From contig JAGLDR010000076.1 in NCBI GenBank assembly GCA_023145475.1, forward strand, positions 5,488-69,487: a stretch of DNA of 64,000 nt, in the 5' to 3' direction. Made by a program: the position numbers and the translations under genes. Position 1 is the stretch's first letter, and each line of letters begins with the position of its first letter. Shown here piece by piece: positions 3,498-62,476 of this stretch. The notes beneath the pieces are model-generated. The model ran no database searches, had not been told where the DNA came from, and worked only from the letters and a program-made list of their open reading frames with translations. The DNA comes from a bacterium. GTDB taxonomy: Bacteria; UBP6; UBA1177; JAGLDR01.

Positions 3498-3519
3498 ATT
3501 ACCCTCGCTTAAGTCAAAT

Positions 3520-8954: not shown

Positions 8955-10494
8955 TATCTATTTTTGAGAAATCAAAGAAAGAGTCTGCATCAAGACCCTC
9001 TCCACCTTTCTGTCTCTTTCGTCCATACAAATCATCAATAAACAGCTGGAGGCTGTAACGAATCTGTCTAGCACGACGGAGGCTAAGCTCTGAATTTTTT
9101 GCAAAAGTATCTGTATCTGGCTCACTTTCAATATCGGCAAGGTTGAGATATCCTTTTGCTTCAAGATGTGCTGCCTGGTCATCATTGATACAGTTAAGTG
9201 ATGAGGTAACCACTGACAGTTTCTCCTCAAGCTCTTCATCAATCTCAATGGCACTCAACCCCTTTTTAAGCATATCTTTGGCCTGCTCAATAATCTTCTT
9301 TGCATGCTCTGTGGTAATATCAGGCAACTCTGACAATGTTTCTGGAGCAACATCTATCAAATCTTCGAGTGTTGTATAACCAAGCGTAATCAAAGAGTCA
9401 GCAATACTTGAATCAACGCCATCAATAAAGAGCAATCTTCTTTTTGCCTCTTCAAGCATCATATTCATCTGACTTTCACTCTGAATATCAATGCTCCAAC
9501 CGGTAAGCTGTGATGCCAATCTAACATTTTCACCACCACGACCAATCGCAACAGAAAGTTGATCATCAGGAACGATAACATCCATACTATGTTCATCTTC
9601 ATCAATGACAATCTGATTGACCTCTACAGGACTCAGAGTGTTACAGATATATTGTACAGAGTCATCATGCCATGGAACGATATCAATCTTCTCACCGCTC
9701 AACTCGTGAACGATATTTTGGATTCGAGAACCCTTCATACCAACACAGGCACCAACAGGATCAACATCACTGTCAATTGATTTAACCGATATTTTTGAAC
9801 GGTGGCCAGGATCTCTAGCAACACCTTCAATAATAACAACCTCTTCATTAATTTCTGGAACTTCAAGCTCAAAAAGCTTAATAATAAAACGAGTGTTAAT
9901 TCTACTCAAGACAATGCTGCACCCTTGCTGATTTTTGGAAACTTCCAAAATAAGAGCTTTGATGCGGTCGTTGTTACGAAAGCGTTCACCAGGAATCAGC
10001 TGGCTAAAAGGCATGTATGCCTCAGCTTTACCAATATCAACAATAATACCACTCTTTTCATAACGACGAACAGTACCGGTAATAATCTCATATTCACGAC
10101 CTTTAAACTCATCATATACAAGGTCGCCACTCAATGTTTTCAACTTTTGAATAATAGTTTGTTTAGCAACTTGTGCCGCAATTCGTCCAAGCTCAGCTGA
10201 AGGAATTTTAACACCAAGCACTTCACCAATCTCAACTTCGTCATTAAGCGTTAAGGCCTCTTCCATTGTCATTTCAATGGTATTATCCTTCACATCTTCA
10301 ACCACCTCTCTGAAGTAGTAGGCCTCAAGCTCGCCAGTCTCATCATCATACATAATGTCAATATCTGCGTCTGCACTCAGTTTCTTCTGAACGGCTTTAT
10401 AGAGAGCTTCTTTTAACACATCAACAATAAGCTCGCGTTTAATACCTTTCATCTTCACTAGTTGGTCAATTAACTCTTTTAAATTGAACTCCAT
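8920..10494 (-). CDS. nusA: transcription termination/antitermination factor NusA
   Basis: 524 aa; S1 and KH domains (VIVPDDQLSVAIGRGGENVRLASQLTGW); acidic C-terminal repeats. Confidence 0.95.
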   Translation of the reverse strand: MEFNLKELIDQLVKMKGIKRELIVDVLKEALYKAVQKKLSADADIDIMYDDETGELEAYYFREVVEDVKDNTIEMTMEEALTLNDEVEIGEVLGVKIPSAELGRIAAQVAKQTIIQKLKTLSGDLVYDEFKGREYEIITGTVRRYEKSGIIVDIGKAEAYMPFSQLIPGERFRNNDRIKALILEVSKNQQGCSIVLSRINTRFIIKLFELEVPEINEEVVIIEGVARDPGHRSKISVKSIDSDVDPVGACVGMKGSRIQNIVHELSGEKIDIVPWHDDSVQYICNTLSPVEVNQIVIDEDEHSMDVIVPDDQLSVAIGRGGENVRLASQLTGWSIDIQSESQMNMMLEEAKRRLLFIDGVDSSIADSLITLGYTTLEDLIDVAPETLSELPDITTEHAKKIIEQAKDMLKKGLSAIEIDEELEEKLSVVTSSLNCINDDQAAHLEAKGYLNLADIESEPDTDTFAKNSELSLRRARQIRYSLQLFIDDLYGRKRQKGGEGLDADSFFDFSKIDNDDEEDEGKGE

Positions 10495-10970
10495 TAGATT
10501 TTCCCCTCATATATTACATGCATTTTTTTCACATTGTCTCGTCTAATCTCAAACTCATTTTTTTCATCATCTATCAAAACAAAAATTTCTTTCTCTTCGT
10601 CAACACTCTGCAAAATACCAGTAAATCGACGACGACCAGCAAGAGCCGTTCCTGTCGACACCTTTACTCGACTTCCGATAAAACGGGCAATATGATCCCA
10701 GCGACGAATTGATCTATCAAGCCCTGGACTGCTCACCTCAAGTCGATACTTAAACGAGAAAGAGTCAAGAGTATCTAACCAATCAGAAACGACAGGACTT
10801 ATTTTTGAACAGTCATCAAGCGATACCGCCTCGCCATTCATGCGTTCAATAAAAAGACGGAAAACGCCGTTTTCCCTGCCTGGTGTCTCAATATCCACCA
10901 CGGACAGCTCCATACTGTTGGCAATTTTTTCGATGTCATCAAACAAAGCTTTAGCTCTCTGCGCCCACAT
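10494..10970 (-). CDS. rimP: ribosome maturation factor RimP
   Basis: GRENGVFRLFIERMNG..SLDDCSKISP and LEVSSPGLDR motifs. The likely start is Met at 10970 (MWAQRAKALF); the 11048 start would add 26 non-conserved residues. Confidence 0.75.
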   Translation of the reverse strand: MWAQRAKALFDDIEKIANSMELSVVDIETPGRENGVFRLFIERMNGEAVSLDDCSKISPVVSDWLDTLDSFSFKYRLEVSSPGLDRSIRRWDHIARFIGSRVKVSTGTALAGRRRFTGILQSVDEEKEIFVLIDDEKNEFEIRRDNVKKMHVIYEGKI

Positions 10971-11174
10971 AGCCAATACCCCGTGTAAAGAGAAACAAAA
11001 GGACAGATCCGAGTGACAACTCGGTAAGAACTGGCAAACTTCTAACATATTTTAGAGAAAAAGCAAGGATTTTATAGAAAAACTCTACCAAAGAGAGAGT
11101 CACGCCACTACATTTCTTTTTGAGGTGTCTTGAGCTGATACATCCGTTCAACGAAGGAAACGACGAATGTGATA

Positions 11175-12737
11175 TTACAAATGTCTAAAGGTTCTCACTC
11201 CAGTGAATACCATCGCAATGTTATGCTCATTACACGCTGCGATAACTTCATCATCTCGCTTACTTCCACCTGGCTGAATAATGGCGACAATGCCGACTTC
11301 TGCAGCTCTGTCTACGCTGTCTCTAAATGGGAAAAAAGCATCAGACGAAAGGACACATCCCTTAATCTCTGAACGAGATTTTACAATCGCTTTTTCAAGG
11401 GCATCTATACGAGACATCTGTCCAGCACCAATACCGACAGCGCGATGATTTCGTGCAATGATAATCGCATTGCTTTTGACATGTTTTACTGCTTTTTGAG
11501 CAAAAAGGAGTGCATTCATCTCCTCTTCTGTCGGCTTCCTGTCACTGACAACGGTAAAATAGTTCGGAGTTAACACAAATCTATCTTTTGATTCAATCAA
11601 CAATCCGCCACTAATTTTCTTGTATTCGTAATCACTCTTATCGCTGACTTCCATAATCCCCGTTGCAATCAGTCTAAGATTTTTCTTTTTTGCAAAAATC
11701 TCTAGTGCAGCAGGAGAAAATGAGGGAGCTATCACAGCCTCAACAAAGAGAGAGCGCATCATCTCTGCTGTCTCTTGTCCGACCTCTCTATTTGTACCAA
11801 TAACAGAGCCAAAGGCGGAAACAGGATCAGTTTCTAATGCTGAAACATAGGCATCAAGCACATCTCTACCAATTGCAAGACCACACGGATTAGTATGCTT
11901 CATAATGGCAACCGCTGGCTGAGAAAACTCTTGCACGATTCCTTTTGCTGCATCTAAATCAATATAGTTGTTAAAGCTTAACTGCTTGCCTTGCAACGGT
12001 ATTGCTGAGGCCAAATCCCCTTTGCAAGCAACAGGATTAACATAAAGAGTTGCCGCCTGGTGTGGATTTTCTCCATATCGCAACTCTTTACTTTTAATAA
12101 AGTGAAGATGTAGCATATCGGGATGCTCACGCTCGACCTCACCTTGATGGTTAATCGTACTCAAATATGACGCGATATAACCATCGTATGATGCTGTATG
12201 AGAAAACGCCTTTGCCGAAAGAGAAAAACGAGTAGGCAAAGAGAGATGGTTGTCATTCTTCTCCATTTCACTCAGAATATTAAGATAATCTGTTGGATCG
12301 GTAACAATCGCAACATCACGAAAGTTTTTAGCAGCCGAACGAACCATTGTCGGTCCACCAATATCTATCTTTTCGATGATTGCCTCAAAAGAGCCACCTT
12401 GTTCAACAGTCTCACGAAATGGATAGAGATTAACAGCAACCAAATCAAAAGGCACCATTCCATGTTTATTCAGTGCTTCCATATGCTCTGGATTGTCTCT
12501 TTTTGCTAAAATACCACCATGAATTTTTGGGTGGAGCGTCTTAACTCGCCCATTCATCATTTCAGGATAGCCAGTGTAATCCTCTACCTTTTCGACACTG
12601 ATTCCAGCATCGTGAATCGCCTGCCATGTGCCTCCAGTAGAATAAAGAACGACTCCTTTTGCGGCCAGTGATTTTGCAAAATCAACCACACCATCTTTAT
12701 AAAAAACACTCAATAACGCTCGCTTGATTTCTCTCAT
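11175..12737 (-). CDS. purH: bifunctional AICAR transformylase / IMP cyclohydrolase
   Basis: 520 aa; ALLSVFYKDGVVDFA, LYSTGGT, KTLHPKIHGGIL and AVVSDAFFPFRD are canonical PurH motifs. Confidence 0.95.
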   Translation of the reverse strand: MREIKRALLSVFYKDGVVDFAKSLAAKGVVLYSTGGTWQAIHDAGISVEKVEDYTGYPEMMNGRVKTLHPKIHGGILAKRDNPEHMEALNKHGMVPFDLVAVNLYPFRETVEQGGSFEAIIEKIDIGGPTMVRSAAKNFRDVAIVTDPTDYLNILSEMEKNDNHLSLPTRFSLSAKAFSHTASYDGYIASYLSTINHQGEVEREHPDMLHLHFIKSKELRYGENPHQAATLYVNPVACKGDLASAIPLQGKQLSFNNYIDLDAAKGIVQEFSQPAVAIMKHTNPCGLAIGRDVLDAYVSALETDPVSAFGSVIGTNREVGQETAEMMRSLFVEAVIAPSFSPAALEIFAKKKNLRLIATGIMEVSDKSDYEYKKISGGLLIESKDRFVLTPNYFTVVSDRKPTEEEMNALLFAQKAVKHVKSNAIIIARNHRAVGIGAGQMSRIDALEKAIVKSRSEIKGCVLSSDAFFPFRDSVDRAAEVGIVAIIQPGGSKRDDEVIAACNEHNIAMVFTGVRTFRHL

Positions 12738-12768
12738 TTGTACCTCAATAAATATAGGTTAAAGATTA

Positions 12769-15021
12769 CTATTTAATAAGCCAAATTCTCATAAGTTCGA
12801 ATCGGTTATCACCATCGTTAGGAACATCCTTAAAGTTGGTGATATTGGCACGATAATCCTCTTGATAGAGTCCAATGTAGGGAATGTAATAGCTGTTTTT
12901 TGAATTAGCCGGAAGACGGACAGAGAGTGGGTGACGAACCAAGTCACCTTTTTTCCAATAGGTGGTTGGATATGCTCCCATTGCCATATTTTCATCACCT
13001 TTTGTACGCATATCTTTTTTGTCACCTTCATTGTGAAGGAAGACCATATAATCTTTTGGGATATTGCCTTGCAATGCTCTGAAATAAAGATCGATTTCAA
13101 TCGTTTGACCTGCTTTCGCCCACAGTTTCCCATCTCTCTTTTCAACATTTCCTTTGATGATTTTATAACTTTCTAGCTCTGCTATTTTATCAAAAATTGC
13201 ATGTGAGGAGACAGCGTCTGAAGGAATTGATTTTGGGCGATATTTTTTGACTGCATTTTCATCAAGTGCTCGCCCCTTTCCACTCACCCTCATTAAGAGA
13301 TTTTTCTGGCCTTTTTTAACAAGTGTTACCGTCTTACCAAGCCGTTTCATCAAATTGCTAAATCTCTTTTTGTCACTCTTTTTCATAATGACATACTGCG
13401 TTCCCGGCTTATTGAAAAAGCGTAAAACAGACTTCTCTTTATCTTTTTTGAGAAAGGTAATATCATTTTTAAGCCAAAATGATGAGCTTCGGCGAAACCA
13501 CTTGTAGTAATCAGCAATTGGTTCTCGCTTCGGACTTACTTCAAGATATTTATCAATAAGCGGTTTCAGAGAGTACGATCGAGATATAACCGGCATCGCA
13601 AACGCAAAATAGTAGAGCATAAAGAGAGCCGTTACGCTAAACATAATTCTGATAGCATTCTTGCGAAATTTATCATTAATAATAGCAATAAAGAGGGCAA
13701 GTCCAAAGATGGTGAAGGTAATCGCAATAACATAATCAAATGAGGGAACTCGCTCTAAACTTCTATTATTATAAAAGGTAATAAGATGCGCAAATATTCC
13801 ATATTTATTGCCTATATCTCTGCCAATAGCAGCAACAAGCAAGATAGCAACAACCACCTCAATCTTTTTACCTACACTCCACGAAGCACTAAACAGCCGA
13901 TCCAAATAGTAGCCAATCATAATGGCTAAAAATGGCAAGACAGGCGCAACATAGTGATAAAATTTTGTAGAGCTATATGAAAAGAAAAAATAGGGACCAA
14001 CAAACATTGAAAAGAGTAAAATATGCGTCCGAAATGAAGATGTTTTTGTCCTATCTTTGAAAAAATGATAGATGGCAGCAGGAATAAAAGCACTCCACGG
14101 GAACATAGCATATCCGATAATCTGTACATAGAGAGTATAGAGATCATTTGGTTTATGAATAACGCCCATCGCCCGCTTAAAGTGGTGAAACCAGATGAAA
14201 ATACGGATAAATTCAAATCCACCATCATACCACATATAGCCAACCCACGACATCACGACAGCAAGGTAGATTCCCATACCAATAAGGTGGTGTTTAAAGT
14301 TTCGCCATGAGAAAAAGATGGCAAAATCAAAGGTCAAAAGGAGATAAATCAGTAACGCCGCACCAGGGATTGAAACAGAGAGAAGCCCCTTTGCCAAAAA
14401 TGCCCACCCTTCAAGAAAATAGAAGATGTAGAGATAGAGATTTCTCCGAGGAATTTTCCATATTTTATCAGCAACATCGGTTTTTCGCATGACGATAAAT
14501 CGTGCTAAAAAGAGCATTGCCATCGTATTAAGAGCAAGAAAAGGAAGGTCAACCATAATGTGACGACTGAGCATAAAAAATTGCGGAGACATCATCAAAA
14601 TCAGTGTAGAGAAGAGAGCCGTTCTGCGACGAAACAGTGTTGAAAGAACAAGATAAAATGAGAACAAAAAGGTGACAGAAAAGAGCGCAATGGGCAATCT
14701 TCCCATAAATTCACCGATGGAGATGGCAAAAAACGGCATCTGCATCCAGAAAAGAAGAGGTGGTTTTGACCAAAAACGGTTACTGTTACGATACCAAAGT
14801 CGTGCAAAACTGTTGTGAGACATCGTCTCCCATGTTACCTGACTGTAGTGATTTTCCCATGGATCAAACAGGTGAAAGTTGCCAAGCATTGGAATATAGA
14901 GAAATGCCGCAAGAAGGAGGAGAGAGAGGGCAATTGCCCAATCAATCGGCTCTATTTTTTTGCCTCGTGTTTCACTCATCAAAGGAAACTGTTTTACTAT
15001 ATCTGAAATCTGTATCATCAA
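12769..15021 (-). CDS. GT-C fold membrane glycosyltransferase (PMT/ArnT-like, COG1807-type) with ~300-aa C-terminal soluble domain
   Basis: About 12 predicted TM helices in the first ~450 aa. The first periplasmic loop carries an acidic motif (FDPWENHY), reminiscent of the DE motif of PMT/ArnT enzymes. The long hydrophilic C-terminal extension is atypical. Confidence 0.55.
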   Translation of the reverse strand: MMIQISDIVKQFPLMSETRGKKIEPIDWAIALSLLLLAAFLYIPMLGNFHLFDPWENHYSQVTWETMSHNSFARLWYRNSNRFWSKPPLLFWMQMPFFAISIGEFMGRLPIALFSVTFLFSFYLVLSTLFRRRTALFSTLILMMSPQFFMLSRHIMVDLPFLALNTMAMLFLARFIVMRKTDVADKIWKIPRRNLYLYIFYFLEGWAFLAKGLLSVSIPGAALLIYLLLTFDFAIFFSWRNFKHHLIGMGIYLAVVMSWVGYMWYDGGFEFIRIFIWFHHFKRAMGVIHKPNDLYTLYVQIIGYAMFPWSAFIPAAIYHFFKDRTKTSSFRTHILLFSMFVGPYFFFSYSSTKFYHYVAPVLPFLAIMIGYYLDRLFSASWSVGKKIEVVVAILLVAAIGRDIGNKYGIFAHLITFYNNRSLERVPSFDYVIAITFTIFGLALFIAIINDKFRKNAIRIMFSVTALFMLYYFAFAMPVISRSYSLKPLIDKYLEVSPKREPIADYYKWFRRSSSFWLKNDITFLKKDKEKSVLRFFNKPGTQYVIMKKSDKKRFSNLMKRLGKTVTLVKKGQKNLLMRVSGKGRALDENAVKKYRPKSIPSDAVSSHAIFDKIAELESYKIIKGNVEKRDGKLWAKAGQTIEIDLYFRALQGNIPKDYMVFLHNEGDKKDMRTKGDENMAMGAYPTTYWKKGDLVRHPLSVRLPANSKNSYYIPYIGLYQEDYRANITNFKDVPNDGDNRFELMRIWLIK

Positions 15022-15035
15022 ATCCTCACAATAAC

Positions 15036-15341
15036 TTATAAAAAGAGCAACGAGCAGCCATCAGCTTTAATGCGCTCAGTTTTTATAGCATCTCTATCTG
15101 TATTTTCAGTCACATCTGGAAAATTGTAATCGTCATAGTTTGGCTCAACGGTATCACTGTCTGCTATCTCATTATCAGAATCGGCAACATCTTCATCAAC
15201 AGATGAGAGGTCACTATCAACTGCTACAAAATCGGCGTCACTTGTGAGTGTATCAACATCACCCTGCTCTGCGTCATAGTCAGCATAAAGTGTCAAGGTC
15301 AATAGTATCAAAAGCGTGAAAAACATCGTCAATCGTTGCAT
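15036..15341 (-). CDS. small secreted acidic Ser/Thr/Asp-rich protein
   Basis: 101 aa; N-terminal signal peptide (MFFTLLILLTLTLYA), then an acidic low-complexity body, ending ...DGCSLLFL. Its stop lies 14 nt upstream of the GT-C glycosyltransferase start, so the two are probably co-transcribed. Confidence 0.4.
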   Translation of the reverse strand: MQRLTMFFTLLILLTLTLYADYDAEQGDVDTLTSDADFVAVDSDLSSVDEDVADSDNEIADSDTVEPNYDDYNFPDVTENTDRDAIKTERIKADGCSLLFL

Positions 15342-15425: not shown

Positions 15426-15469
15426 TACGAAGCAAATTAGTGGGTACAACTTTTTTTGGAGGTCGTGTG

Positions 15470-17299
15470 ATGTTTAGATTCCTACCTGTTTTACTGATTT
15501 TCTCTTTTTTATCCCTTTCGGCGTTGTCGGACGCCAAGCAAATTTCAAGTGACGATACGCAAAAAAGATATGTCCGCAAGGTCGTTCTTGGTTTTGAGGC
15601 ATTAGCTTTTGAGCAAGATATGCTTGATGTGCCGATTAAGTATTGTGATGCCCGTGGCAAACGAACGAATTGCTCATGGTGGAATATTCGAGTGAAGTTT
15701 CCTCTTGATATGTCACAACGCCTCAAGGCTGGAAAAACTTTCTATGAGTGGACGGTAACTAACCGGTTTGACAAAGTTTTGGTGCAAGATGGTAAGATGT
15801 CACTGCATACGCGAAACGCGGTCAATGTTCAAAATATTGGCTCATTCCCCATTTTCAAGCCTGGTGTTTCATCGAACACCACCTTTAGAAATGATCTCGA
15901 ACACTATCTTAACGATGATTTAGCTCCTGTTTTCCAAAAGTTGATGGTAGATTCAGCAAAACAGCGGTATCAAGAGCTTCCTGAAAAAGAGCAGGCAACA
16001 TTTATTACGACCAAGGCGAAAGAGCTTGGAATGTCAGCAGGCGTCATCAGACAGTTGATGAATTCAGCTTTTGTCTTTGCCTCACATGTTGATAAGATAA
16101 ACGCAAGCGGAACGCTGACCTATTACTATGTCAAGACTATGAACGGTGGCAACTTGCCTCGTTGGGATATAAAATTTGATATTCCTATTCGTGTCTCTGT
16201 CTATATCTATCGTTACAGTCCTGAAAAACAAAAGTTTATTTCATACCGAGTGTGGCAGGCATACAGTGGCGGCGGAACAGGTGCATTTGATGTACAGACA
16301 ATGACTTTCTTGCCAAATAGAGCGCAGGTTACGGCCTCATTTAAAAACACCTATCAAACAGCAATTAAGGCTGCGGCAATCAATGCAAACTATCAGCTGA
16401 AAAAAGATGATAACTTCGCTATTTTTATGCCTATTTCTGGTGTTAATGGAAGCAAGTTAAAGGCGCCGTTTGGTGTGATTGAAGATATTAGAGTCGATCA
16501 CCCATTTTCAATTAGACAGAAGATTGATGGAAAGTGGAAGGTGACGGGATACGCTCGCGCTCGTAAAGTTGCTGTCAACTGCAAAGATGAACAGGCAGAA
16601 ACGACACTGCAACGAGTAAAAGGTAGCGCTGAAGAGGCTGACTTGCTGAGAGAATATCCGTGGACAGGACTCTTCTTCCAATTGGGATTGGGCAACAATG
16701 CTTTGTTGTTGTCGGGTAAAAATGGTAACGCTGATTTTGGAGGAATGCTTGGTGCTCCTGGTTTAGATTTGGGAATGGCAATTGATATGGGATACGCGAC
16801 AAACACCTCATGGCTGAGTGAATTTTATATCTCATTCTTTATGGGTGGCTCATATGGCGTTGAAGGAAATACAACATACGGAAATCCATTTAACTACTTT
16901 GGTGGTTTTGGATTTGATAAGCGATTTTATGTTGGCGCTGGCGGATTCTTTATTGGAATTGGAACACGACTTGCCTATATGGGTGGCGTTTCCGTTGGGG
17001 CAAATAACAGCTTAACTTATGGCACAATTGATATTAACCCGCGATTACAGTTTGGATGGAGTTTTACCCCAAAGTTTGAGCTGATTATAAACGCTGGATG
17101 GAACCTTGCATTTTTAATGCACGGAGATGCTGATGTTGGACTTGGCACTACTCCTGTCACAAATCTATATGAAACATTTTCACATGGATTGAATGCGGGC
17201 ATTACATTTAGTTTCCACCTGCCAGTTGTCAGTGCGATGAGCAAGATGTATAGCAAGCCTTCAAAAGAGTGTAAAAAGACAAAAACAGAGTCGAAATAA
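15470..17299 (+). CDS. secreted hypothetical protein (609 aa), Gly-rich beta-rich C-terminal region
   Basis: The GGAGG RBS and the signal peptide MFRFLPVLLIFSFLSLSALSDA favour the start at 15470 over the ORF start at 15440. The C-terminal third is rich in G/F/Y alternations (GGFGFDKRFYVGAGGFFIGIG), suggesting beta structure. No family recognised. Confidence 0.5.
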   Translation: MFRFLPVLLIFSFLSLSALSDAKQISSDDTQKRYVRKVVLGFEALAFEQDMLDVPIKYCDARGKRTNCSWWNIRVKFPLDMSQRLKAGKTFYEWTVTNRFDKVLVQDGKMSLHTRNAVNVQNIGSFPIFKPGVSSNTTFRNDLEHYLNDDLAPVFQKLMVDSAKQRYQELPEKEQATFITTKAKELGMSAGVIRQLMNSAFVFASHVDKINASGTLTYYYVKTMNGGNLPRWDIKFDIPIRVSVYIYRYSPEKQKFISYRVWQAYSGGGTGAFDVQTMTFLPNRAQVTASFKNTYQTAIKAAAINANYQLKKDDNFAIFMPISGVNGSKLKAPFGVIEDIRVDHPFSIRQKIDGKWKVTGYARARKVAVNCKDEQAETTLQRVKGSAEEADLLREYPWTGLFFQLGLGNNALLLSGKNGNADFGGMLGAPGLDLGMAIDMGYATNTSWLSEFYISFFMGGSYGVEGNTTYGNPFNYFGGFGFDKRFYVGAGGFFIGIGTRLAYMGGVSVGANNSLTYGTIDINPRLQFGWSFTPKFELIINAGWNLAFLMHGDADVGLGTTPVTNLYETFSHGLNAGITFSFHLPVVSAMSKMYSKPSKECKKTKTESK

Positions 17300-17319
17300 C
17301 TTTACTGTAGGAGTTGACG

Positions 17320-18240
17320 GTGAAAAAAGGAGTGTTACTATTTTTTACATTTTTATTGTTTTCCTGCAATTGCTCACCATCTCAACCCTCAACCGATTAT
17401 GACAATGATTCCGACACTCAACTCTCAACTGATCGCGACAGTGATCTTTCAACTCATCACGACAGTGATGCTACAACCGACACCGATTACGACTCACCCA
17501 TCACCGATTCCAATAACGACATCGCAACTGATGCTGATATTCATGAACAGTGCCTTGATCTGAGAATACAGCAAAATGTCATCAAATCGGGGTTTCCATT
17601 AAAGGACAAAAATGGAAAGATAACATTCTGCCGTCCAGAATGTGATACACCGACAGAGACAGATCCGCAGTGTGTCAGAAATATATGGGATTGGAACAAT
17701 TGGGGTGTCTATCAAACCTATCTGAATGATGAAGAAAAAAAGACCTCTCCAGAATGTTATCCGTGGCCATGTATCATCACAGAGATGAAGGCATCTCATA
17801 CAAATATGAAAAGTAGCTGTGATCGGTTTCTTGCCGTTAACAATTATGGTTCTTCAATGGGAACAATTTCTGATCTTCGCGTCAGTGAAGGAATCGCCGG
17901 AATTGAGATGGGAGGATATGTATCGGGATATAACTCACTGCGAGCAATGGCATATCACATTGAAAAAGATGCGTTTGAACCGGTTGGGTACAGTGGCGCT
18001 TATACTGGATTCAATTACGGAAGATTTCTTTTGACAACCGCAAACGGAGATTGGAGCAAAGAAACTTTCACACAAACATATATCATTTCAGCAAAAAGAA
18101 TGAGTGAAAACCATTGGAAATATGAAGTTATTTACGATGATGAGCAAAGGAAAAGTTATTGTCCAACAGTTTCCCCATGGACAAACAGCGTTATGTATGA
18201 AATGGGATTCGGCTCTTTTGATGGGCAATATCAGTTATGA
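17320..18240 (+). CDS. lipoprotein with acidic linker, paralogous module family A
   Basis: GTG start after a GGAG RBS gives MKKGVLLFFTFLLFSCNCS (lipobox), then a D/S/T-rich linker. The conserved module KSGFPLKDKNGKITFCRPECDTPTETDPQCVRNIWDWNNW...ECYPWPC is shared with the 22874-24400 protein. Confidence 0.5.
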   Translation: MKKGVLLFFTFLLFSCNCSPSQPSTDYDNDSDTQLSTDRDSDLSTHHDSDATTDTDYDSPITDSNNDIATDADIHEQCLDLRIQQNVIKSGFPLKDKNGKITFCRPECDTPTETDPQCVRNIWDWNNWGVYQTYLNDEEKKTSPECYPWPCIITEMKASHTNMKSSCDRFLAVNNYGSSMGTISDLRVSEGIAGIEMGGYVSGYNSLRAMAYHIEKDAFEPVGYSGAYTGFNYGRFLLTTANGDWSKETFTQTYIISAKRMSENHWKYEVIYDDEQRKSYCPTVSPWTNSVMYEMGFGSFDGQYQL

Positions 18241-18339: not shown

Positions 18340-21300
18340 GTGATGAAAAATGTTCTAAGGTCTTTAAAATTAAAAGGAGTAGTTGCTGTAATATTCCTTA
18401 TTTTTGCAACACTTCATGCAACGGAAAGCTCAAACTATTATTCTGTGAGAGCTTACAACGCTTCGCCTGAAGCTGTTCAATTTCTTCAATCAAATATGGA
18501 AAAGATCTATTACGACCGTTATGGAATGCCGACTTATATAGTTAAGCTGGAAAATTTAAGTGTCCTGTCTCAGTATTCTGGGATAGAAGTTAACTTCGGT
18601 GTAACATCTTCTGAATACAACAGCATTGATCTTAATGAAACTGTTCCTTCTAAGTATAGTTGGGATTTTGGTAATACTGTTGACACTTCCCGTTCGGGAT
18701 GGAAAACTAAAGATTCCACTGGAAATGATTGGCCTGAACATGACTGGCCATCATATCCTGCGATGACAGTTGAATTGTTAAACAATGTTAATGATTATGT
18801 TACACAACAGTTGCCCGTAGAAGATATTGAACGGGTAGTTAGATCCAATATCGCCTCTGCACTTTATTTCATAGAATACAATATTGCCGCAGAATCTGTA
18901 TATAACAGCCGATGGGATCGTGAGGATTTCAACCCATCACTTGTAGACATTGATGCTGATAATGATCATTGTGTCGATTATTTTCCCAATGACTGTCTGT
19001 CTGCCAAGAATAAAGATAGTGATAACGATGGTGTAGTTGACGAACTAGATAACTGCCCCAATACTAAAAATCCGGGACAGACGGATTTTGATAAAGACGG
19101 GACAGGTGATTTGTGTGATCCATGTCCGAGACGATTCGGTTCAGCGACGGGTCTAGATAGTGACGGAGATGGAATAGATGATGGCTGTGATAACTGTCCA
19201 CTTCATTACAACAAACTTGAACCGATAAATCCTTTTAGTGAAATTATTTCTGCACCCATAAGTAAGTTTTTCAAAATAACTGATGAAAATAATGAACCCT
19301 TAAATAAAGGGCTGGAGCTTTATTATGAGGGCGGGGCTTTTTATTCAGGTGGTTATATTTATTATGCTTTTAGTGATATTAAAGAAGAGGATCTTGGTTA
19401 TTTTTTTACAGAAGAAGAGATTGAGTTCTACAATTCGAATCCCAATATTTTTGGTGATAAGTTCCTTTTATCCACTCCAATTTATCCTTTCAATGGAGTT
19501 CCTGTCACTTATTCTACAGAAATTGACCTGTTTAATGGAAGATCAGCTCTCTTCTTTTCGTTTAATTATCTCTGGCAACCTGACCATGATCTTGATGGCA
19601 TAGGTGATGTCTGTGATATGCCGGGCGAAGTTGTGAGAGAGAGGATTCCAACAATAGATGATGCTGGAAAACTCGTTCTTGATTCCGATGATAAAGCTCT
19701 GTTTGTTCCTCAAATAGGAGATGGATTTGCATACAATAAGATAAAAACAGTCAAAAACCTCACAACTCGAAAGGCATATTTGCCATGGATTGGGGGATAC
19801 GACGATACGGCGGTTAAAATAGAACTTCAAATGCCGCTTTACAGCAAGGATCCTCAAAGTTGCGTGACAAGATTCTCCTATCAAATTAATGATAATCTGA
19901 CACTTGATGACAATGTATGTCAGTCGGCAGTACATTTTTGTGCAGTGGATAAACGACTAAAACATCTCTGGGGAGAAGACGGTTACTGTTCGACATCAGA
20001 TAAAACAGAGCGATACAACGACAATTCAAATCTTGCAAAACCGCTTTTTCCGTTTGGCTTTAGCCACGGAAGTGATGATTTTTCAGAATCCTCAGTTTAT
20101 AGCTGGAGAATGCGAATATCATCCGCGAAAACAGGCAATTCTCTGAAAAATATGGGTTTTGAAACTGAATACTTATCAAATCCAAACAGTGATGTATACA
20201 GATCCATCCAACAGACTTCTACAACAGGAGAGAGTGTTTATTGGAATTGGAGACGAGATTGGTGGTATTGGAATGAATGTTACAGACCTGATAAAACAGA
20301 CGATCCCAGATGTCTGGCACTAAAAACTCCTCCAGAGCTGAGGGATAGTGAAAATACCATGTATTATGCGATTTCAACAAATATTGTTCCTGTGACAAAA
20401 GCTCAAGCATCTGCAGGAGATGTTCCCTCCTATAACAACGAAGCTACATCAATCAATAACAACTACTTTTTCAACAGCAAGGAAGACCGATTTTCCGGTT
20501 CTGATTTTTGGAAAAAAGATGCGTCAAAATACGGAAGAGCACACCGCTACAGTATGAATAAGATGGAGCTTAATTATCACGGAAAAGTATACTCAACACC
20601 CGACCCTGAAATAGATCCACCGATTGACCTTTCCAAGTTCCAAATGGAACTCTGCATTGATTGTTGGTGGAGAATACCTCTTACAATATTGGATGATGAG
20701 ATGATGAAATATCAACTTGGACGCTGGTCTCTTGAAAAAAGAATTGATAATGTATTGCACTTTTTTGCTGAACCTCTTTCCATTCCTGAAAACGCCATGC
20801 TTTTTATGAGCGCACCTGATAGTGGAGAACTCTTTTCTGTTGTCCAACATTCGGGACAAAATGAAGCTACAAGCTATACTTTAGAGATGAGTCCAAAAGA
20901 TGGTGGGATTGATTGGCAGATTATGGGAGCACTTGCATCATTTCCTGAATCTCTTAAAATCACTGCTGTTACTCCTCATCGCGGGCGTATTTATATCCTT
21001 GGACACACTCCTGATGCCTCAGAAGAAACTCTTTTTGCCATTACTCCTGAAACAATTCCCCCTGAAGGCATCACTCTTCCCAACTCTCAAGACAGACCTC
21101 AATTTGTTGTTAGCAATGTGAGTGTAACAGGAATAAGTGAGGACTCATTCGACGAAATACAAATAATATCTTCAGGAGAGAAGTTGTTCTTGGTTGGCTC
21201 TGATGCAACAGGAGGTGAAACAAAAACTTTTAAATTAAACACCGAAACGACACTGTTTGAAGAGGTAGCAGGTCAATCTCCTGCCTATCGTAAAATATAT

Positions 21301-22761: not shown

Positions 22762-22770
22762 TGATATAAT
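22762..22770 (+). promoter_or_regulatory. candidate extended -10 promoter (TGATATAAT)
   Basis: TGnTATAAT at 22762-22770, directly after the hairpin. The six-frame ORF start at 22769 lies inside this element, which supports the later lipoprotein start at 22874. Confidence 0.3.
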
Positions 22771-22873
22771 GCGTAATATGTTAAATTTATTCAACAAGGG
22801 GTTGCAACCCCTTGTTGCCTTTCGGGCGACCACACGGGGGCGCCCCTACAAGACATCTCGTTTATTGGGGCGT

Positions 22874-40572: not shown

Positions 40573-40600
40573 TTGAATTTCCTGAGAATAGATATAAAAT
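40573..40600 (+). promoter_or_regulatory. candidate sigma70 promoter (TTGAAT-16-TAAAAT) for the C25 peptidase gene
   Basis: -35 at 40573-40578 and -10 at 40595-40600. The AAGAGGGAG RBS and ATG at 40636 follow. Confidence 0.3.
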
Positions 40601-40635
40601 GGAATGAAAATATTCTCAACAAGAGGGAGTTCTCT

Positions 40636-54915: not shown

Positions 54916-54948
54916 ATTTTGACTGACAAACTCTTTATAGGAGATAAA

Positions 54949-57441
54949 ATGAAGAAATTAACTGCTCTTTTGTTCCTGCTTCTGTTTATACAGTTAAGCG
55001 CCAGCACCTCACTCTTTTCACACACCAATATTGTGAAAGAAAGTGAAAATGTCCGCTCTATTACCCACCTACACATTACTGTTGCAAACAGTGGCGCTGT
55101 AACTCAATTTATAGAGCGACACTTTTTGAAAACCTTCTTTGATTCACCCTTTATCAAAGCAAATCTCACCAAAGATATCGTAATTGGCGACACAAATATC
55201 ATTCGCTATGACTATAAATACAAGGGAATCCCCATCAATGGCATCTGGACAACAGTTACCGTGCAGAAGGGCCATATTGTCCGCATTGACAATGGACTTG
55301 AAAATATGCAATTTGATGTTTCGCATATTATCTCATCATCGCAAGCGGTTCAAACGGCAATGAAACAGCGACATCTGACAACGCTCCCAACACGGCATAT
55401 ATCATCGTTAATGATTATGAAAGTCGCTGGCGAGTGGACTCCTGTCTATCGAGTCTCATTCACACCTATCGCTCCATTTGATCGACGATTCCATATCATT
55501 CACGCACAAAGTGGACGACATCTCTATCGTGGAAATCTCATCTTTTTTGCTGATGAGGATACCACTACCATAGATGACGAGGTAACTGATTCGGATATAA
55601 CTGAGGTGCCTGATGAGATTGATGCACCAACAGATATGGCATTGATGTACCAATTTAATCCTGAACGGACGGCTGATAGAATTTCCGTTGCATTACCATG
55701 GGTCTCTCTGATTGATGATGCTGCGCTCGACTCGAGTGAACAAGGATTTTTAACCGCCGTCATAGATGATAATGATATTAGAAAAATAAAGGCCTACAAC
55801 TGTCCAGATAATGGTGAAAAGGTGGATATCGGCCCATTAGTGGGCATTTCAATGGCCGTAATGTTACCCATTTGCTCTCCAAAACAGTTGGCTAACAAGG
55901 TTGATAACAACTCATTTGTTTACAACGATTGTCATGATGGCATGACCTACAACCGAGAGAAGATGAATGAAAAAGATATTGATAGATGCGCAGAAGTTTC
56001 AATGTACTATCATACAGCAAAAGTCTATGATTTCTTGCGAAACATAAGCAGTGAATTTGAATATCTCAACAACAATACTGAAGATAAGCCACTGAATTTG
56101 ATTGCTAACTTCCAAATGCCAGAGATGGATCAAGCAAAAATAATGAATGGGACTGCACAATTAACTCCAATGGATAACGCTTTTTATTCTCCTGAGGATC
56201 CAACGCTTAGCGCACTTCTTTCAACTTCAGGTATTTCTGGCAATCTTCTTGTTTTCGGGCAAGGCACAAAGGCTGATTTTGGTTTAGATGGAGATGTGGT
56301 ATATCACGAATTTGGACACGCAATTATCCATACAACAGGGCTAGACTCAAACGGATTTGTTGATAAATATGGATTTAATAACGAGCCTGGCTCACTTCAT
56401 GAAGGTCTTGCAGATTCATTTTCTATGATGCTTACCAATGACCCCTGTACTGGCGAATACGCATCAAAAGGTATTGTAGATATGGTTGTTTCGGGTGGCG
56501 GAACAATTGAGATGGATCGGGATGGTGATTTTTATTGTATGCGTCACGCAAAAAACAGTTACACCGTATTTGAAGACCTTAACGGTGAAGTTCACTGGGA
56601 CGGACAACCAATGTTAGCCGTAAATTGGACAATATTTCAGTGGATAAAAGATAAAAAAATTGGGGGCGAAAATCTCGCCGAGCACCAAAAAACATTCGCA
56701 GAACTACTGTTGAAAGTGCTCTATTCACTCGGAACAGCAGAGGGAACCTACAAACAGTGGGGCACAACACTGCAAACAGTTATTGAAGATGACACACTCT
56801 ATAAAGATATTGCAAAAGATGTGGTAACTTTGATAACGGAGAGAGGATTTTTTACTGATATTCGTTCACGAAAACTTACGGCAGAAAAGCCAATCAAAGC
56901 TTTTTATGTTGCTCAAGGAGCATCATCAGGAGGCATTGGCGATGTAACGGGTGGCTCGGGTGGACTCACAATCGAAGAAGATGAAAAAGAGATTGAAATT
57001 GGAACATCATATCTGCAACTCCTTGTTACTCTGCCTGAAGGAAGCAACAGTATAAAACTTTCCGGAGTCGCTGCGGCTGGCGGTGGTGGACTCGTTGGTG
57101 GTGGAAGTGATCCCGTGTTAAAACTCTATTACCGAGCAGAGAAACCAGTTGAGTACCATCTGACAAAAGATAAAGCAGCAACTGTTGATAAAGATGGGAT
57201 TTCATCTGATGGAAAAGGTGTGTGGAATATAGAAAACATCGCACCCGGCACCTACTATCTGCAATTTATCAATAGTGCTGGTGCAGGAGTTGTTCAGAAT
57301 CTTTCTGTCGCATTTTATACCGCTGAGATAGAAACTCCAGATGAAGATAGTGATACTGCAACAAGTATGGAAGATGATCCTATTCCCGATGAGACAAATC
57401 ATACCGCACCAAGCAGTGGTTGCAGCTCTCTAATAATCTAA
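54949..57441 (+). CDS. secreted gluzincin zinc metalloprotease (HExxH + downstream E..D; M4/M36-like)
   Basis: Signal peptide MKKLTALLFLLLFIQLSAS; VVYHEFGHAIIH (HExxH) followed ~35 aa later by NEPGSLHEGLADSFS (Glu zinc ligand, gluzincin pattern); a Gly-rich segment; ends ...SSGCSSLII. Confidence 0.65.
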   Translation: MKKLTALLFLLLFIQLSASTSLFSHTNIVKESENVRSITHLHITVANSGAVTQFIERHFLKTFFDSPFIKANLTKDIVIGDTNIIRYDYKYKGIPINGIWTTVTVQKGHIVRIDNGLENMQFDVSHIISSSQAVQTAMKQRHLTTLPTRHISSLMIMKVAGEWTPVYRVSFTPIAPFDRRFHIIHAQSGRHLYRGNLIFFADEDTTTIDDEVTDSDITEVPDEIDAPTDMALMYQFNPERTADRISVALPWVSLIDDAALDSSEQGFLTAVIDDNDIRKIKAYNCPDNGEKVDIGPLVGISMAVMLPICSPKQLANKVDNNSFVYNDCHDGMTYNREKMNEKDIDRCAEVSMYYHTAKVYDFLRNISSEFEYLNNNTEDKPLNLIANFQMPEMDQAKIMNGTAQLTPMDNAFYSPEDPTLSALLSTSGISGNLLVFGQGTKADFGLDGDVVYHEFGHAIIHTTGLDSNGFVDKYGFNNEPGSLHEGLADSFSMMLTNDPCTGEYASKGIVDMVVSGGGTIEMDRDGDFYCMRHAKNSYTVFEDLNGEVHWDGQPMLAVNWTIFQWIKDKKIGGENLAEHQKTFAELLLKVLYSLGTAEGTYKQWGTTLQTVIEDDTLYKDIAKDVVTLITERGFFTDIRSRKLTAEKPIKAFYVAQGASSGGIGDVTGGSGGLTIEEDEKEIEIGTSYLQLLVTLPEGSNSIKLSGVAAAGGGGLVGGGSDPVLKLYYRAEKPVEYHLTKDKAATVDKDGISSDGKGVWNIENIAPGTYYLQFINSAGAGVVQNLSVAFYTAEIETPDEDSDTATSMEDDPIPDETNHTAPSSGCSSLII

Positions 57442-60168: not shown

Positions 60169-60232
60169 ATCTCTCCTCCTTGATAAAGATTATGATAGCA
60201 TAGAGTAACAACTCAATTGTGTCAAAGAAAAT

Positions 60233-62329: not shown

Positions 62330-62476
62330 AAGTATCCTCCCTTAACAAACACTCTCTACAGTTTAGTTACCGGAAGGTCTGTTTTTTCCGATTTCTACAC
62401 TATTAATATGTAATTATAAGGAATATTTGGAAAAACATCAACCATTATAAAGAAAAAAGAGGGGATTGTGTAGCAA

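What the first reader, a model, noticed from the sequence alone, without database searches (positions are those of the whole stretch)
12769..15341. Operon of a small acidic Ser/Thr/Asp-rich secreted protein and a GT-C (PMT/ArnT-like) glycosyltransferase; acidic lipoprotein linkers across the window as candidate substrates
A 101-aa secreted protein made almost entirely of D/S/T/E/V low complexity ends 14 nt upstream of a 750-aa polytopic GT-C enzyme of the protein-O-mannosyltransferase/ArnT type. That enzyme carries an unusual ~300-aa C-terminal soluble domain.

Six lipoproteins elsewhere in the window (17320, 22874, 40636, 42521, 58660, 60233) have lipobox-Cys followed by 40-80 aa of D/S/T-rich disordered linker. 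These linkers repeatedly contain D-(S/T)-(A/V/T/L) triplets. That triplet is the sequon used by the general O-glycosylation system of Bacteroidota.

PMT-family enzymes glycosylate Ser/Thr in disordered regions of exported proteins. The co-transcribed acidic protein could be a substrate, a carrier or a chaperone. A dedicated surface-protein O-glycosylation system in this lineage would be new.
Basis: inference. Interest (0 to 1): 0.6.

Follow-up and report, generated by a model that had tools for sequence, protein, structure and literature searches.

The report
ArnT-like glycosyltransferase beside tagged acidic protein
The two genes are real, but they are an ordinary uncharacterised ArnT-like membrane glycosyltransferase and an unrelated small exported acidic protein, which lie side by side only in very close relatives. 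There is no evidence for a dedicated protein O-glycosylation system; the more interesting feature is the small protein's conserved C-terminal Cys tail.

Summary
Both ORFs exist as described.

**The 750-aa protein.**
- It is a GT-C enzyme (Pfam PMT_2).
- It is not an ArnT equivalog, and no arn, GT2 or flippase genes lie nearby.
- It appears as one copy per assembly in about 30 species-level MAGs of candidate phylum UBP6, in changing gene contexts. Distant homologues occur in Myxococcota.
- The "unusual" C-terminal domain has two parts: an ArnT-type periplasmic domain and a beta-sandwich module. The module is found in over 1,300 representative proteins; 8 of 10 sampled are GT-C enzymes.

**The 101-aa protein.**
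- It has only three homologues, and it lies next to the GT only in near-identical relatives.
- Its conserved part is not the acidic stretch. It is a 36-aa C-terminal module ending in ...ADGCSLLFL.
- The same tail (polybasic, SSGCS, then 3-4 hydrophobic residues) ends 103 of 110 homologues of an unrelated protease in the window.
- Myxococcota homologues of that protease carry MYXO-CTERM at the same position.

**The linkers.** Acidic lipoprotein linkers are real. The D-(S/T)-x "sequon" is no more frequent than composition predicts in all but one of them.

**Verdict.** The enzyme class is right. The O-glycosylation system is unsupported, though not excluded.

The parts
12769..15021 (-). 750-aa GT-C glycosyltransferase, ArnT-like (Pfam PMT_2; COG1807-type). 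It is a core gene of candidate phylum UBP6.
13573..15021 (-). Membrane/catalytic domain (residues 1-483), aligned to the ArnT transmembrane core. Residues matching ArnT K85, D158, R270 and Y345 are invariant here as K86, D158, R283 and Y357.
14845..14865 (-). Invariant first-periplasmic-loop motif DPWENHY (residues 53-59). It is the family's variant of the ArnT 'DExRY' and PMT 'DExHF' motif; Myxococcota homologues have DPWE[SA]HY.
13237..13572 (-). Periplasmic alpha/beta subdomain (residues about 484-595) carrying the invariant PIADYYKW motif. It is the counterpart of the ArnT periplasmic domain.
12772..13236 (-). C-terminal beta-sandwich accessory module (residues about 596-750). It is a widespread module absent from Pfam, found at the C-termini of GT-C enzymes.
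   Evidence: (weak ML/NPC2, RhoGDI and Wzt-CBD similarity).
15036..15341 (-). 101-aa exported acidic protein: signal peptide, then a variable acidic region, then a conserved C-terminal module with a Cys tail.
15282..15341 (-). Predicted type I signal peptide (MQRLTMFFTLLILLTLTLYA).
   Evidence: Read directly from the sequence; no predictor was run.
15147..15281 (-). Variable acidic D/S/T/E/V region (residues 21-65). It is poorly conserved and differs in length among homologues.
15039..15146 (-). Conserved 36-aa C-terminal module EPNYDDYNFPDVTENTDRDAIKTERIKADGCSLLFL. Its last 7 residues (15039-15059) are the 'GCS + hydrophobic' tail.
11175..12737 (-). purH (AICAR transformylase/IMP cyclohydrolase), 31 nt downstream of the GT on the same strand and followed by rimP-nusA-ylxR-infB. 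This neighbourhood is not conserved.
54919..57441 (+). 840-aa secreted protein, a putative metalloprotease (about a dozen of its listed homologues carry Pfam FTP; some sources name homologues Zn metalloprotease). It ends ...SSGCSSLII, the same C-terminal tail as the 101-aa protein.
17314..18240 (+). Lipoprotein with an acidic D/S/T linker after the lipobox Cys. It stands for the set at 17314, 22769, 40573, 42473, 58660(-), 60233(-) and 1833(-).

Best explanation
The finding covers two neighbouring genes that are probably not one functional system.

**Gene 1, the 750-aa protein.**
- It is a conserved ArnT-like GT-C glycosyltransferase, found as one copy per assembly across the UBP6 MAGs recovered here.
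- By homology, its N-terminus is cytoplasmic. Its first loop (DPWENHY) and its C-terminal domains face the periplasm.
- It binds a polyprenyl-phosphate-monosaccharide donor through the conserved Lys86/Arg283/Tyr357 triad and Asp158. It then transfers the sugar to an envelope acceptor.
- The donor is probably not L-Ara4N, because ArnT Glu84 is an invariant Ser here.
- The acceptor is not shown. My estimate (inference only) is:
  - about 0.55 for a non-protein envelope glycoconjugate (LPS/lipid A or another lipid-linked or polymeric glycan), with the beta-sandwich serving as a glycan- or lipid-binding accessory;
  - about 0.25 for protein Ser/Thr;
  - about 0.2 for something else.

**Gene 2, the 101-aa protein.**
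- It is a small Sec-exported acidic protein.
- Its functional core is a conserved C-terminal module ending in a lineage-wide tail: basic residues, then (S/D)GCS, then 3-4 hydrophobic residues at the C-terminus.
- This tail sits where Myxococcota homologues of another UBP6 protein family carry MYXO-CTERM. It is therefore most likely a Cys-dependent sorting or anchoring tag (inferred, not shown).

**The acidic stretches.** The D/S/T-rich stretches next to N-terminal lipobox cysteines and next to the C-terminal GCS tail are best read as flexible tethers beside membrane anchors.
For: **Class and fold of the GT**
- Pfam PMT_2 above its cut-off.
- The family profile hits only ArnT 5EZM in PDB sequences (2.8e-34, residues 31-385).
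- AF2 model with pLDDT 82.9.
- Foldseek top hits are ArnT 5F15/5EZM (E 9e-17, TM 0.74-0.75); the next hit is at 4e-5.
- The counterparts of ArnT K85, D158, R270 and Y345 are invariant, while E84 is Ser.

**Housekeeping distribution**
- About 30 full-length orthologues (48-76% identity), one per assembly in UBP6 MAGs.
- Their neighbours are unrelated: a dnaK-like gene, groEL, galE, feoAB and a block that looks like recF-dnaN-dnaA.

**C-terminal domains**
- The alpha/beta part matches the ArnT periplasmic domain.
- The beta-sandwich is widespread, and 8 of 10 sampled hits are GT-C enzymes.

**No conserved link to the small ORF**.

**Small protein and its tail**
- Conserved module in the four homologues.
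- The tail ends 103 of 110 homologues of the unrelated 840-aa protease. MYXO-CTERM sits at the same place in its Myxococcota homologues.
- A third unrelated family also carries the tail.

**Linkers**
- No sequon excess.
- Disordered N-terminal linkers are common in lipoproteins generally (10.1101/2021.01.05.425367).
Against: - No acceptor or donor was identified. Closeness to ArnT in fold does not fix the acceptor, because PMTs score only moderately lower.
- The loop motif carries His, as in PMT 'DExHF' (recalled from memory), where ArnT has Arg.
- In this genome and its closest relatives the small ORF and the GT are only 14-75 nt apart with no terminator, so co-transcription is likely here.
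- In three contigs from two lineages (L083, L086, L088) the GT lies next to a Cys-rich lipoprotein gene.
- Both the GT subfamily and GC-type C-terminal tags appear restricted to UBP6 plus Myxococcota, so a link cannot be excluded.
- The function of the GCS tail is inferred only from its position and conservation.
Confidence: 0.55

Rival explanations
1. The GT-C is a PMT-like protein O-glycosyltransferase that decorates Ser/Thr in the acidic disordered linkers of surface lipoproteins. The co-transcribed 101-aa acidic protein is a substrate, carrier or chaperone.
For: - GT-C of the PMT/ArnT clan; weak Pfam PMT hits in many orthologues; Pmt4 and Pmt2 are the second-best fold class.
- The GT and acidic-linker lipoproteins are both present across UBP6 loci.
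- The two genes are tightly spaced with no terminator.
- The GT lies next to Cys-rich lipoprotein genes in L083, L086 and L088.
- Actinobacterial Pmt O-mannosylates lipoprotein linkers (established knowledge; see also PMC8698208).
Against: - ArnT is clearly the closest relative by profile and fold. No PMT chain is matched at E<=1 by sequence.
- Adjacency with the small ORF is lost in every relative beyond near-identical ones.
- The conserved part of the small protein is its C-terminal module, which contains only three Ser/Thr; the acidic stretch varies.
- The sequon is not enriched over composition.
- Surface and lipoprotein genes make up roughly a quarter of this window, so chance adjacency is expected.
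Confidence: 0.22
2. The 750-aa protein is a genuine ArnT, transferring L-Ara4N (or a related amino sugar) from undecaprenyl phosphate to lipid A phosphates.
For: - Best sequence and structure match is ArnT.
- The best NCBIfam hit is the ArnT model.
- The phosphate-binding triad and D158 are conserved.
- The organism looks diderm: SurA-like chaperone, lipoproteins and proteins that look like outer-membrane beta-barrels by eye.
Against: - The NCBIfam ArnT equivalog scores 42.7 bits against a cut-off of 567.
- Identity to ArnT is 17%.
- ArnT Glu84 is replaced by an invariant Ser, and the position of Asp55 is shifted.
- No arnB/C/A/D/E/F-like neighbours in 33 UBP6 loci or in the Myxococcota loci.
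- ArnT lacks the extra beta-sandwich.
Confidence: 0.05
3. The 101-aa ORF is not a functional gene in its own right. It would be a decayed fragment (linker plus tail) of a larger surface protein, or a chance ORF in an AT-rich intergenic region.
For: It has no globular domain and no Pfam or NCBIfam hit. Its composition resembles the linker-plus-tail ends of large tagged proteins.
Against: - It has its own ribosome-binding site and signal peptide.
- It was called as a gene in public records.
- It has three homologues of similar length (89-105 aa), each with its own signal peptide, and a strongly conserved 36-aa module.
Confidence: 0.04

Closest known systems
ArnT (PmrK), GT83 lipid A 4-amino-4-deoxy-L-arabinose transferase (Cupriavidus metallidurans, PDB 5EZM/5F15)
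   Same: - Same order of transmembrane core followed by a periplasmic alpha/beta domain.
- Counterparts of K85, D158, R270 and Y345 are conserved.
- A loop-1 acidic motif followed by an aromatic residue.
   Different: - Only 17% identity, and far below the NCBIfam equivalog cut-off.
- Glu84 is Ser; the loop motif is DPWENHY rather than DExRY.
- There is an additional beta-sandwich of about 155 aa.
- No arn operon is present. The donor and acceptor are unknown.
Protein O-mannosyltransferases, GT39 (yeast Pmt1/2/4; actinobacterial Pmt)
   Different: - Pfam PMT is below its gathering score for this protein.
- No PMT chain is matched by the family profile at E<=1.
- There is no MIR domain.
- No evidence exists for a protein acceptor.
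Three-component extracytoplasmic glycan-modification systems: a polyprenyl-P-sugar synthase (GT2), a flippase and a GT-C (Gtr-type, CsbB/YfhO-type; PMC11127046, PMC8035078)
   Same: A periplasmic GT-C using a polyprenyl-P-monosaccharide is the expected third component. An accessory soluble domain fits glycan recognition.
   Different: The partner GT2 and flippase are not encoded next to the GT in any of the roughly 40 loci examined, so membership of such a system is only inferred.
MYXO-CTERM and other Cys-containing C-terminal sorting tags cut by CPBP/Rce1-like myxosortases (10.1101/2023.06.07.544157; PMC11980579)
   Same: There is an invariant Gly-Cys near the C-terminus of Sec-exported surface proteins, preceded by a disordered acidic region. 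Myxococcota homologues of the UBP6 protease family carry MYXO-CTERM at exactly the place of the UBP6 tail.
   Different: The UBP6 tail has no transmembrane helix and no Arg cluster. Only 3-4 hydrophobic residues follow GCS, a length like the eukaryotic CaaX box, and the basic residues lie before the Cys. No processing enzyme has been identified.
Bacteroidota general O-glycosylation at D-(S/T)-(A/I/L/V/M/T) (PMC12871550)
   Same: The triplet occurs in the acidic linkers.
   Different: The lineage is UBP6, not Bacteroidota. The triplet is at chance frequency given composition. The Bacteroidota O-OTase is itself still unidentified, so no enzyme comparison is possible.

Membership tests
Pfam PMT_2 (PF13231) / GT-C fold | Score above the gathering threshold, and a GT-C membrane fold. 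| tested here: met
   [not shown]
ArnT (lipid A L-Ara4N transferase, NCBIfam PRK13279 equivalog) | Score above the curated equivalog cut-off. | tested here: not met
   42.7 bits against a cut-off of 567.
ArnT | Undecaprenyl-phosphate-binding residues K85, R270 and Y345, plus D158. | tested here: met
   They align to invariant K86, R283, Y357 and D158. The residue roles come from the ArnT structure paper as I remember it.
ArnT | Acidic residues D55 and E84 of the sugar pocket. | tested here: not met
   E84 aligns to an invariant Ser85. D55 aligns to Trp55, with Asp53 and Glu56 flanking it.
ArnT | arn (pmrHFIJKLM) operon context, or Ara4N synthesis genes. | tested here: not met
   No such neighbours in 33 UBP6 loci or the Myxococcota loci. 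Whole genomes could not be searched.
GT39 protein O-mannosyltransferase | Pfam PMT (PF02366) above the gathering score. | tested here: not met
   18.3 bits against 22.7. Hits in orthologues are weak.
GT39 protein O-mannosyltransferase | Loop-1 Asp-Glu catalytic motif. | tested here: inconclusive
   The motif is DPWENHY: Asp and Glu are separated by two residues and followed by His-Tyr. The comparison with the PMT motif is from memory.
GT39 protein O-mannosyltransferase | Protein Ser/Thr acceptor. | not testable with these tools
   This needs glycoproteomics or an in vitro assay.
Conserved operon / dedicated two-gene system (small acidic protein + GT) | Gene adjacency conserved beyond close relatives. 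| tested here: not met
   Adjacent only in the window and L083-L085. Absent in L079 (GT 76% identical), L081 (small protein 44% identical) and 31 other UBP6 loci.
Bacteroidota general O-glycosylation | D-(S/T)-(A/I/L/V/M/T) sequon used above chance, in a Bacteroidota lineage. | tested here: not met
   Shuffle test on 9 lipoprotein linkers: only 60233 (a tandem repeat) exceeds the shuffles. The lineage is UBP6.
MYXO-CTERM (TIGR03901) sorting tag | Invariant Cys in a short signature motif near the C-terminus of exported proteins. | tested here: met
   GCS is invariant in 103 of 110 homologues and in all 4 small-protein homologues.
MYXO-CTERM (TIGR03901) sorting tag | Transmembrane helix and Arg-rich cluster after the motif. 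| tested here: not met
   Only 2-5 (mostly 3-4) residues follow GCS. There is no NCBIfam hit.
MYXO-CTERM (TIGR03901) sorting tag | Cognate CPBP-family myxosortase in the genome. | tested here: inconclusive
   A motif scan of about 0.6 Mb of held UBP6 DNA found none. The test is weak, and whole genomes were not available.

The most novel reading that the evidence does not exclude
The tail is [quoted passage not shown]. It ends the 101-aa protein, the 840-aa protease family and at least one further family.

In the most novel reading, it is a previously undescribed C-terminal sorting or lipid-anchoring signal of candidate phylum UBP6. It would be a version of the Myxococcota MYXO-CTERM without the transmembrane helix or the Arg cluster. 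Its length and polybasic flank resemble a eukaryotic CaaX box, but it would act on Sec-exported proteins in the periplasm.

If so, the 101-aa ORF is a minimal client: signal peptide, acidic tether, tag. UBP6 would then offer a natural test of how Cys-tagged proteins are modified without a membrane-spanning segment.

A second, weaker novel reading is that the ArnT-like GT acts on these tagged or tethered surface proteins.
Probability: 0.4. Interest if true: 0.65.

Novelty: new member of a known kind. Interest (0 to 1): 0.35.

Why it matters
**The finding as posed.** It does not reveal a new glycosylation system.
- It adds one more uncharacterised ArnT-like GT-C subfamily. The subfamily has a DPWE(N/S/A)HY motif and is restricted to UBP6 and Myxococcota in the genome scan.
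- It shows that a beta-sandwich module at the C-termini of many bacterial GT-C enzymes is still missing from Pfam.

**The C-terminal Cys tail.** This would matter more.
- All described Cys-containing prokaryotic sorting tags are tripartite, with a transmembrane helix and an Arg cluster.
- A conserved tail of CaaX length on exported proteins, homologous in position to MYXO-CTERM, would link the bacterial myxosortase/CPBP pathway to CaaX processing.
- It would also constrain the still unknown step that modifies the Cys.

**Relationship between phyla.** The shared surface-protein repertoire suggests that the envelopes of UBP6 and Myxococcota are related.

Tried and rejected
- **Conserved operon.** I searched upstream ORFs in 28 orthologous loci, the closest relative L079 and all loci by tblastn. 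Rejected beyond near-identical relatives.
- **Recurrent partner genes (GT2, flippase, arn, lpx).** I clustered all ORFs of 33 UBP6 loci and used the precomputed Pfam of Myxococcota-type contexts. Only clade-specific synteny was found.
- **Sequon enrichment.** Shuffle test. Rejected.
- **"Unusual" C-terminal domain.** phmmer against 1.84 billion representatives showed it is common.
- **Beta-sandwich as a lipid-binding ML/RhoGDI-like domain that recognises the Cys tail.**
  - Only weak Foldseek hits (E 5e-3 to 0.1).
  - The module occurs in many GT-C proteins from lineages where this tail has not been seen.
  - Not pursued.
- **Large Cys-rich lipoproteins downstream of the GT in L086/L088 as tagged clients.** They lack any GC tail.
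- **CPBP/myxosortase search by motif in the held UBP6 DNA**. Nothing found; this is a weak test.
- **Hydropathy-based topology**. It was too crude for this protein, so the topology rests on homology with ArnT and on the K/R-rich loops 127-131 and 178-194.
Full report

- The minus strand carries a 101-aa ORF (15036-15341). It has a GGAGGG ribosome-binding site and a hydrophobic N-terminal signal sequence.
- The stop codon of the small ORF lies 14 nt before a TTG, or 17 nt before the adjacent ATG, that opens a 750/749-aa ORF (12769-15021).
- Public records call both genes.
- No terminator-like site on the minus strand separates the small ORF, the large ORF and the next gene, purH. Co-transcription in this genome is therefore plausible.
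- The large protein matches Pfam PMT_2 above threshold. It matches Pfam PMT below threshold, and the NCBIfam ArnT model far below its equivalog cut-off.
- Lipoproteins with D/S/T-rich linkers after the lipobox Cys exist at the six places cited, plus one more at 1833-3581(-).

**2. Which organism?**

- A scan of one genome per species found full-length orthologues of the large protein (48-61% identity), one locus per assembly, in about 30 MAGs.
- Those MAGs are labelled "bacterium", "UBP6_UBA1196/UBA1209", or mislabelled Spirochaetales or Sumerlaeota. They come from rumen, digesters and sediments.
- Homologues at 25-35% identity occur in Myxococcota.
- UBP6 (proposed name Candidatus Asafiota) is an uncultured phylum.
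- The window's other surface proteins also point to a Myxococcota-like envelope: CglD-like and MtsC-like TSP3 repeats, Cys-rich repeats and a "choice-of-anchor" domain.

**3. What is the 750-aa protein?**

*Closest relatives*
- A profile of 26 orthologues (A1) hits only one solved protein by sequence: ArnT of Cupriavidus metallidurans (2.8e-34 over residues 31-385). No PMT chain is matched at E<=1.
- The AF2 model is good (pLDDT 82.9, pTM 0.81).
- Foldseek puts ArnT first (E 9e-17, TM 0.74-0.75 on the target). Every other GT-C is at 4e-5 or worse.

*Key residues*
- In the HMM alignment, ArnT K85, D158, R270 and Y345 align with invariant K86, D158, R283 and Y357. In my memory of the ArnT structure paper, K85, R270 and Y345 hold the undecaprenyl phosphate.
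- ArnT E84 is an invariant Ser here.
- The loop-1 motif is DPWENHY instead of DExRY.
- Myxococcota homologues share DPWE(S/A)HY.

*Topology*
- Topology follows from the ArnT superposition and from the K/R-rich short loops 127-131 and 178-194. The DPWENHY loop and everything after residue about 484 are periplasmic (inference).

*Conclusion*

**4. The C-terminal "unusual" domain**

- Residues about 596-750 form a beta-sandwich. It has only weak similarity to ML/NPC2, RhoGDI and the Wzt glycan-binding domain.
- A phmmer search of 1.84 billion representatives with the C-terminal 266 residues gave 1,357 hits at E<=1e-3.
- Most hits match only the beta-sandwich core. They lie at the C-terminal end of 500-1,100-aa proteins and often occur in two or three copies.
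- Of ten sampled hits, eight are GT-C enzymes of several Pfam families: PMT_2, TMEM260-like, PTPS_related and DUF2142.
- The module is therefore a common accessory of bacterial GT-C enzymes that Pfam lacks. It is not a peculiarity of this protein.

**5. Is there an operon or system?** No.

- None of 28 orthologous loci has a comparable ORF upstream of the GT.
- The closest orthologue (76% identity, L079) has a divergent feoAB upstream, and no small ORF in the 475-nt spacer.
- The small protein has only three homologues in 5.8 billion clusters.
- In L084/L085 the GT starts about 75 nt downstream of the small ORF. These contigs come from a near relative, whose neighbouring gene is 87% identical to the window's.
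- In L083 a 115-aa Cys-rich lipoprotein gene sits between the two.
- In L081, the most divergent homologue (44%), the small gene is followed by a 296-aa protein that looks like an outer-membrane protein, then a CapC-like phosphatase and rlmN, not the GT.
- tblastn finds no further copies in any held locus.
- Clustering all ORFs of 33 UBP6 loci shows only clade-specific synteny. There is no GT2, flippase, arn or lpx neighbour. The same holds for Myxococcota-type contexts.

**6. What is the 101-aa protein?**

- Alignment of the four homologues shows that the acidic region varies in sequence and length.
- The last 36 residues are nearly invariant: EPNYDDYNFPD(V/I)xExTDxxxxKTERIxADGCSxLF(L/VQ).
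- The final GCS plus four hydrophobic residues is not unique to this family.
- The 840-aa secreted putative metalloprotease at 54919-57441 ends ...SSGCSSLII, and an unrelated 835-aa protein in L009 ends ...SGSGCSVLIF.
- Among 110 UBP6-type homologues of the 840-aa protein (30-74% identity), 103 end with GC(S/T) followed by 2-5 residues: 61 have three and 40 have four, almost all hydrophobic.
- In those homologues an acidic stretch comes first. In 88 of the 103, at least two Lys/Arg lie within the twelve preceding residues, for example ...EEGKKKKSSGCSLVL.
- The ten most distant homologues are of Myxococcota type, and sources name some of them "MYXO-CTERM domain-containing". At the same position they carry the canonical MYXO-CTERM: SGCGC, a transmembrane helix, then RRRR.
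- All four described Cys-containing tags (MYXO-, JDVT-, Synerg- and CGP-CTERM) are tripartite, with a transmembrane segment and an Arg cluster. They are cut by CPBP/Rce1-type myxosortases after a presumed lipidation of the Cys (10.1101/2023.06.07.544157; PMC11980579).
- The UBP6 tail lacks both the helix and the Arg cluster and has roughly the length of a CaaX box. I found no description of such a tail, and no Pfam or NCBIfam model matches it.
- Its function (sorting or Cys-dependent anchoring) is inferred from position and conservation only.
- The resemblance to the polybasic-CaaX end of K-Ras4B comes from memory. It is a lead, not a test.

**7. The acidic linkers and the sequon**

- In a shuffle test on the 80 residues after each lipobox Cys, D-(S/T)-(A/I/L/V/M/T) was at chance frequency in eight of nine lipoproteins. 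These include four of the five cited linkers tested (the scan missed 22769).
- The triplet was also at chance frequency in the mature 101-aa protein.
- The exception is 60233, whose linker is a tandem DSA/DTS repeat.
- The sequon is specific to Bacteroidota, and the Bacteroidota transferase is still unidentified (PMC12871550).
- Acidic linkers are also present in other UBP6 loci. They occur next to the C-terminal tail as well.
- Disordered N-terminal linkers are a general property of Gram-negative lipoproteins (10.1101/2021.01.05.425367).
- The simplest reading is that these are tethers beside membrane anchors. This does not exclude glycosylation.

**8. Mechanism and likelihoods**

- *Shown:* GT-C fold, ArnT as nearest relative, conserved donor-phosphate residues, and a conserved gene found in varying contexts across UBP6.
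- *Inferred:* a polyprenyl-P-monosaccharide donor, transfer on the periplasmic side, and a donor other than Ara4N.
- *Not shown:* the acceptor. I put about 0.55 on a non-protein envelope glycoconjugate, about 0.25 on protein Ser/Thr, and the rest on other acceptors. A true ArnT function gets about 0.05.
- The small ORF is a real gene (about 0.95).
- That its tail is a functional sorting or anchoring signal of a new variant type gets about 0.4-0.5.

**9. Novelty and verdict**

- As posed, the finding is an ordinary uncharacterised GT-C lying by accident next to a small exported protein. The proposed O-glycosylation system has no positive evidence, and the score is low to moderate.
- The C-terminal GCS tail, which lies partly inside the finding's coordinates, is the item worth following up.

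**10. Limits**

- No whole UBP6 genome could be searched, so the presence of LPS genes, GT2 donor synthases or CPBP proteases is unknown.
- The lineage assignment rests on homologue labels.
- The signal peptide, the resemblance of some neighbours to outer-membrane proteins, and the recF-dnaN-dnaA identification were read by eye.

Noticed in passing
window 54919-57441 (+); homologues P0260-P0379: An 840-aa secreted putative metalloprotease ends in ...SSGCSSLII. Of its 110 UBP6-type homologues, 103 end with an invariant GC(S/T) plus 2-5 (mostly 3-4) hydrophobic residues, usually after a Lys cluster and an acidic linker. Its Myxococcota homologues carry a full MYXO-CTERM (GC motif, transmembrane helix, RRRR) at the same place. 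This looks like an undescribed variant of the tag without the transmembrane helix.
   Followed up: partly
L009, minus-strand ORF of about 785-835 aa (start codon not fixed; read on the reverse strand at 11388-13895): A third, unrelated UBP6 protein (no BLAST hit to any window protein) ends ...KSSGSGCSVLIF. The tail is therefore not tied to a single protein family.
   Followed up: partly
window 12772-13236 (-) and hits P0113-P0259: The beta-sandwich at the end of the GT is a widespread module: 1,357 representatives at E<=1e-3, often in 2-3 tandem copies. Sampled hits place it at the C-termini of GT-C enzymes of several Pfam families. No Pfam model covers it.
   Followed up: partly
L083 625-1000 (+); L086 11098-14568; L088 6790-9852: In L083 a 115-aa Cys-rich lipoprotein gene lies between the small ORF and the GT. 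In two Myxococcota-type contigs the homologous GT is followed by a lipoprotein of over 1,000 aa built from DxDCxxGxxC repeats; the two are 37% identical to each other. This may be chance, given how common such genes are there.
   Followed up: partly
window 15440-17299 (+): A 619-aa exported protein with no Pfam or NCBIfam hit is transcribed divergently from the small ORF. The same arrangement, at 87% identity, is kept in L084. Its C-terminal half looks like an outer-membrane beta-barrel, judged by eye only.
   Followed up: no
window 17314-18240 and 22769-24400 (+); 18340-22692 and 24367-25353 (+): Paralogous surface-protein genes. The two lipoproteins share a ...CLDLR..N.IK..FP..DKNGKITFCRP.CDT... 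core after their acidic linkers. The 1,450-aa protein combines TSP3, Kelch and LVIVD repeats with a C-terminal Cys-rich repeat.
   Followed up: no
window 40573-42381 (+): An acidic-linker lipoprotein with a Peptidase_C25 (gingipain/PorU-like) domain (E 1e-42) in a lineage that is not Bacteroidota.
   Followed up: no
window 58660-63841 (-): Three consecutive surface-protein genes: one with a choice-of-anchor L domain, one CglD-like with TSP3 repeats, and one with TSP3 plus vWA. They have weak matches to Myxococcus gliding and cohesion proteins (CglD, MtsC/D). This supports a Myxococcota-like envelope in UBP6.
   Followed up: no
L007, L012, L014 and other loci of the rumen clade, about 10190-13890: In the rumen UBP6 clade the GT lies next to what looks like recF-dnaN-dnaA (judged from the N-terminal sequences only). 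Elsewhere it lies next to a dnaK-like gene, groEL, galE or feoAB. The context is not conserved.
   Followed up: partly
L081 1900-2535 (-) and 140-1750 (-), 3017-3907 (+): The most divergent homologue of the small protein is flanked by a 211-aa polytopic membrane protein with no Pfam hit and by two proteins that look like outer-membrane proteins. The membrane protein was not tested as a possible processing enzyme for the tail.
   Followed up: no
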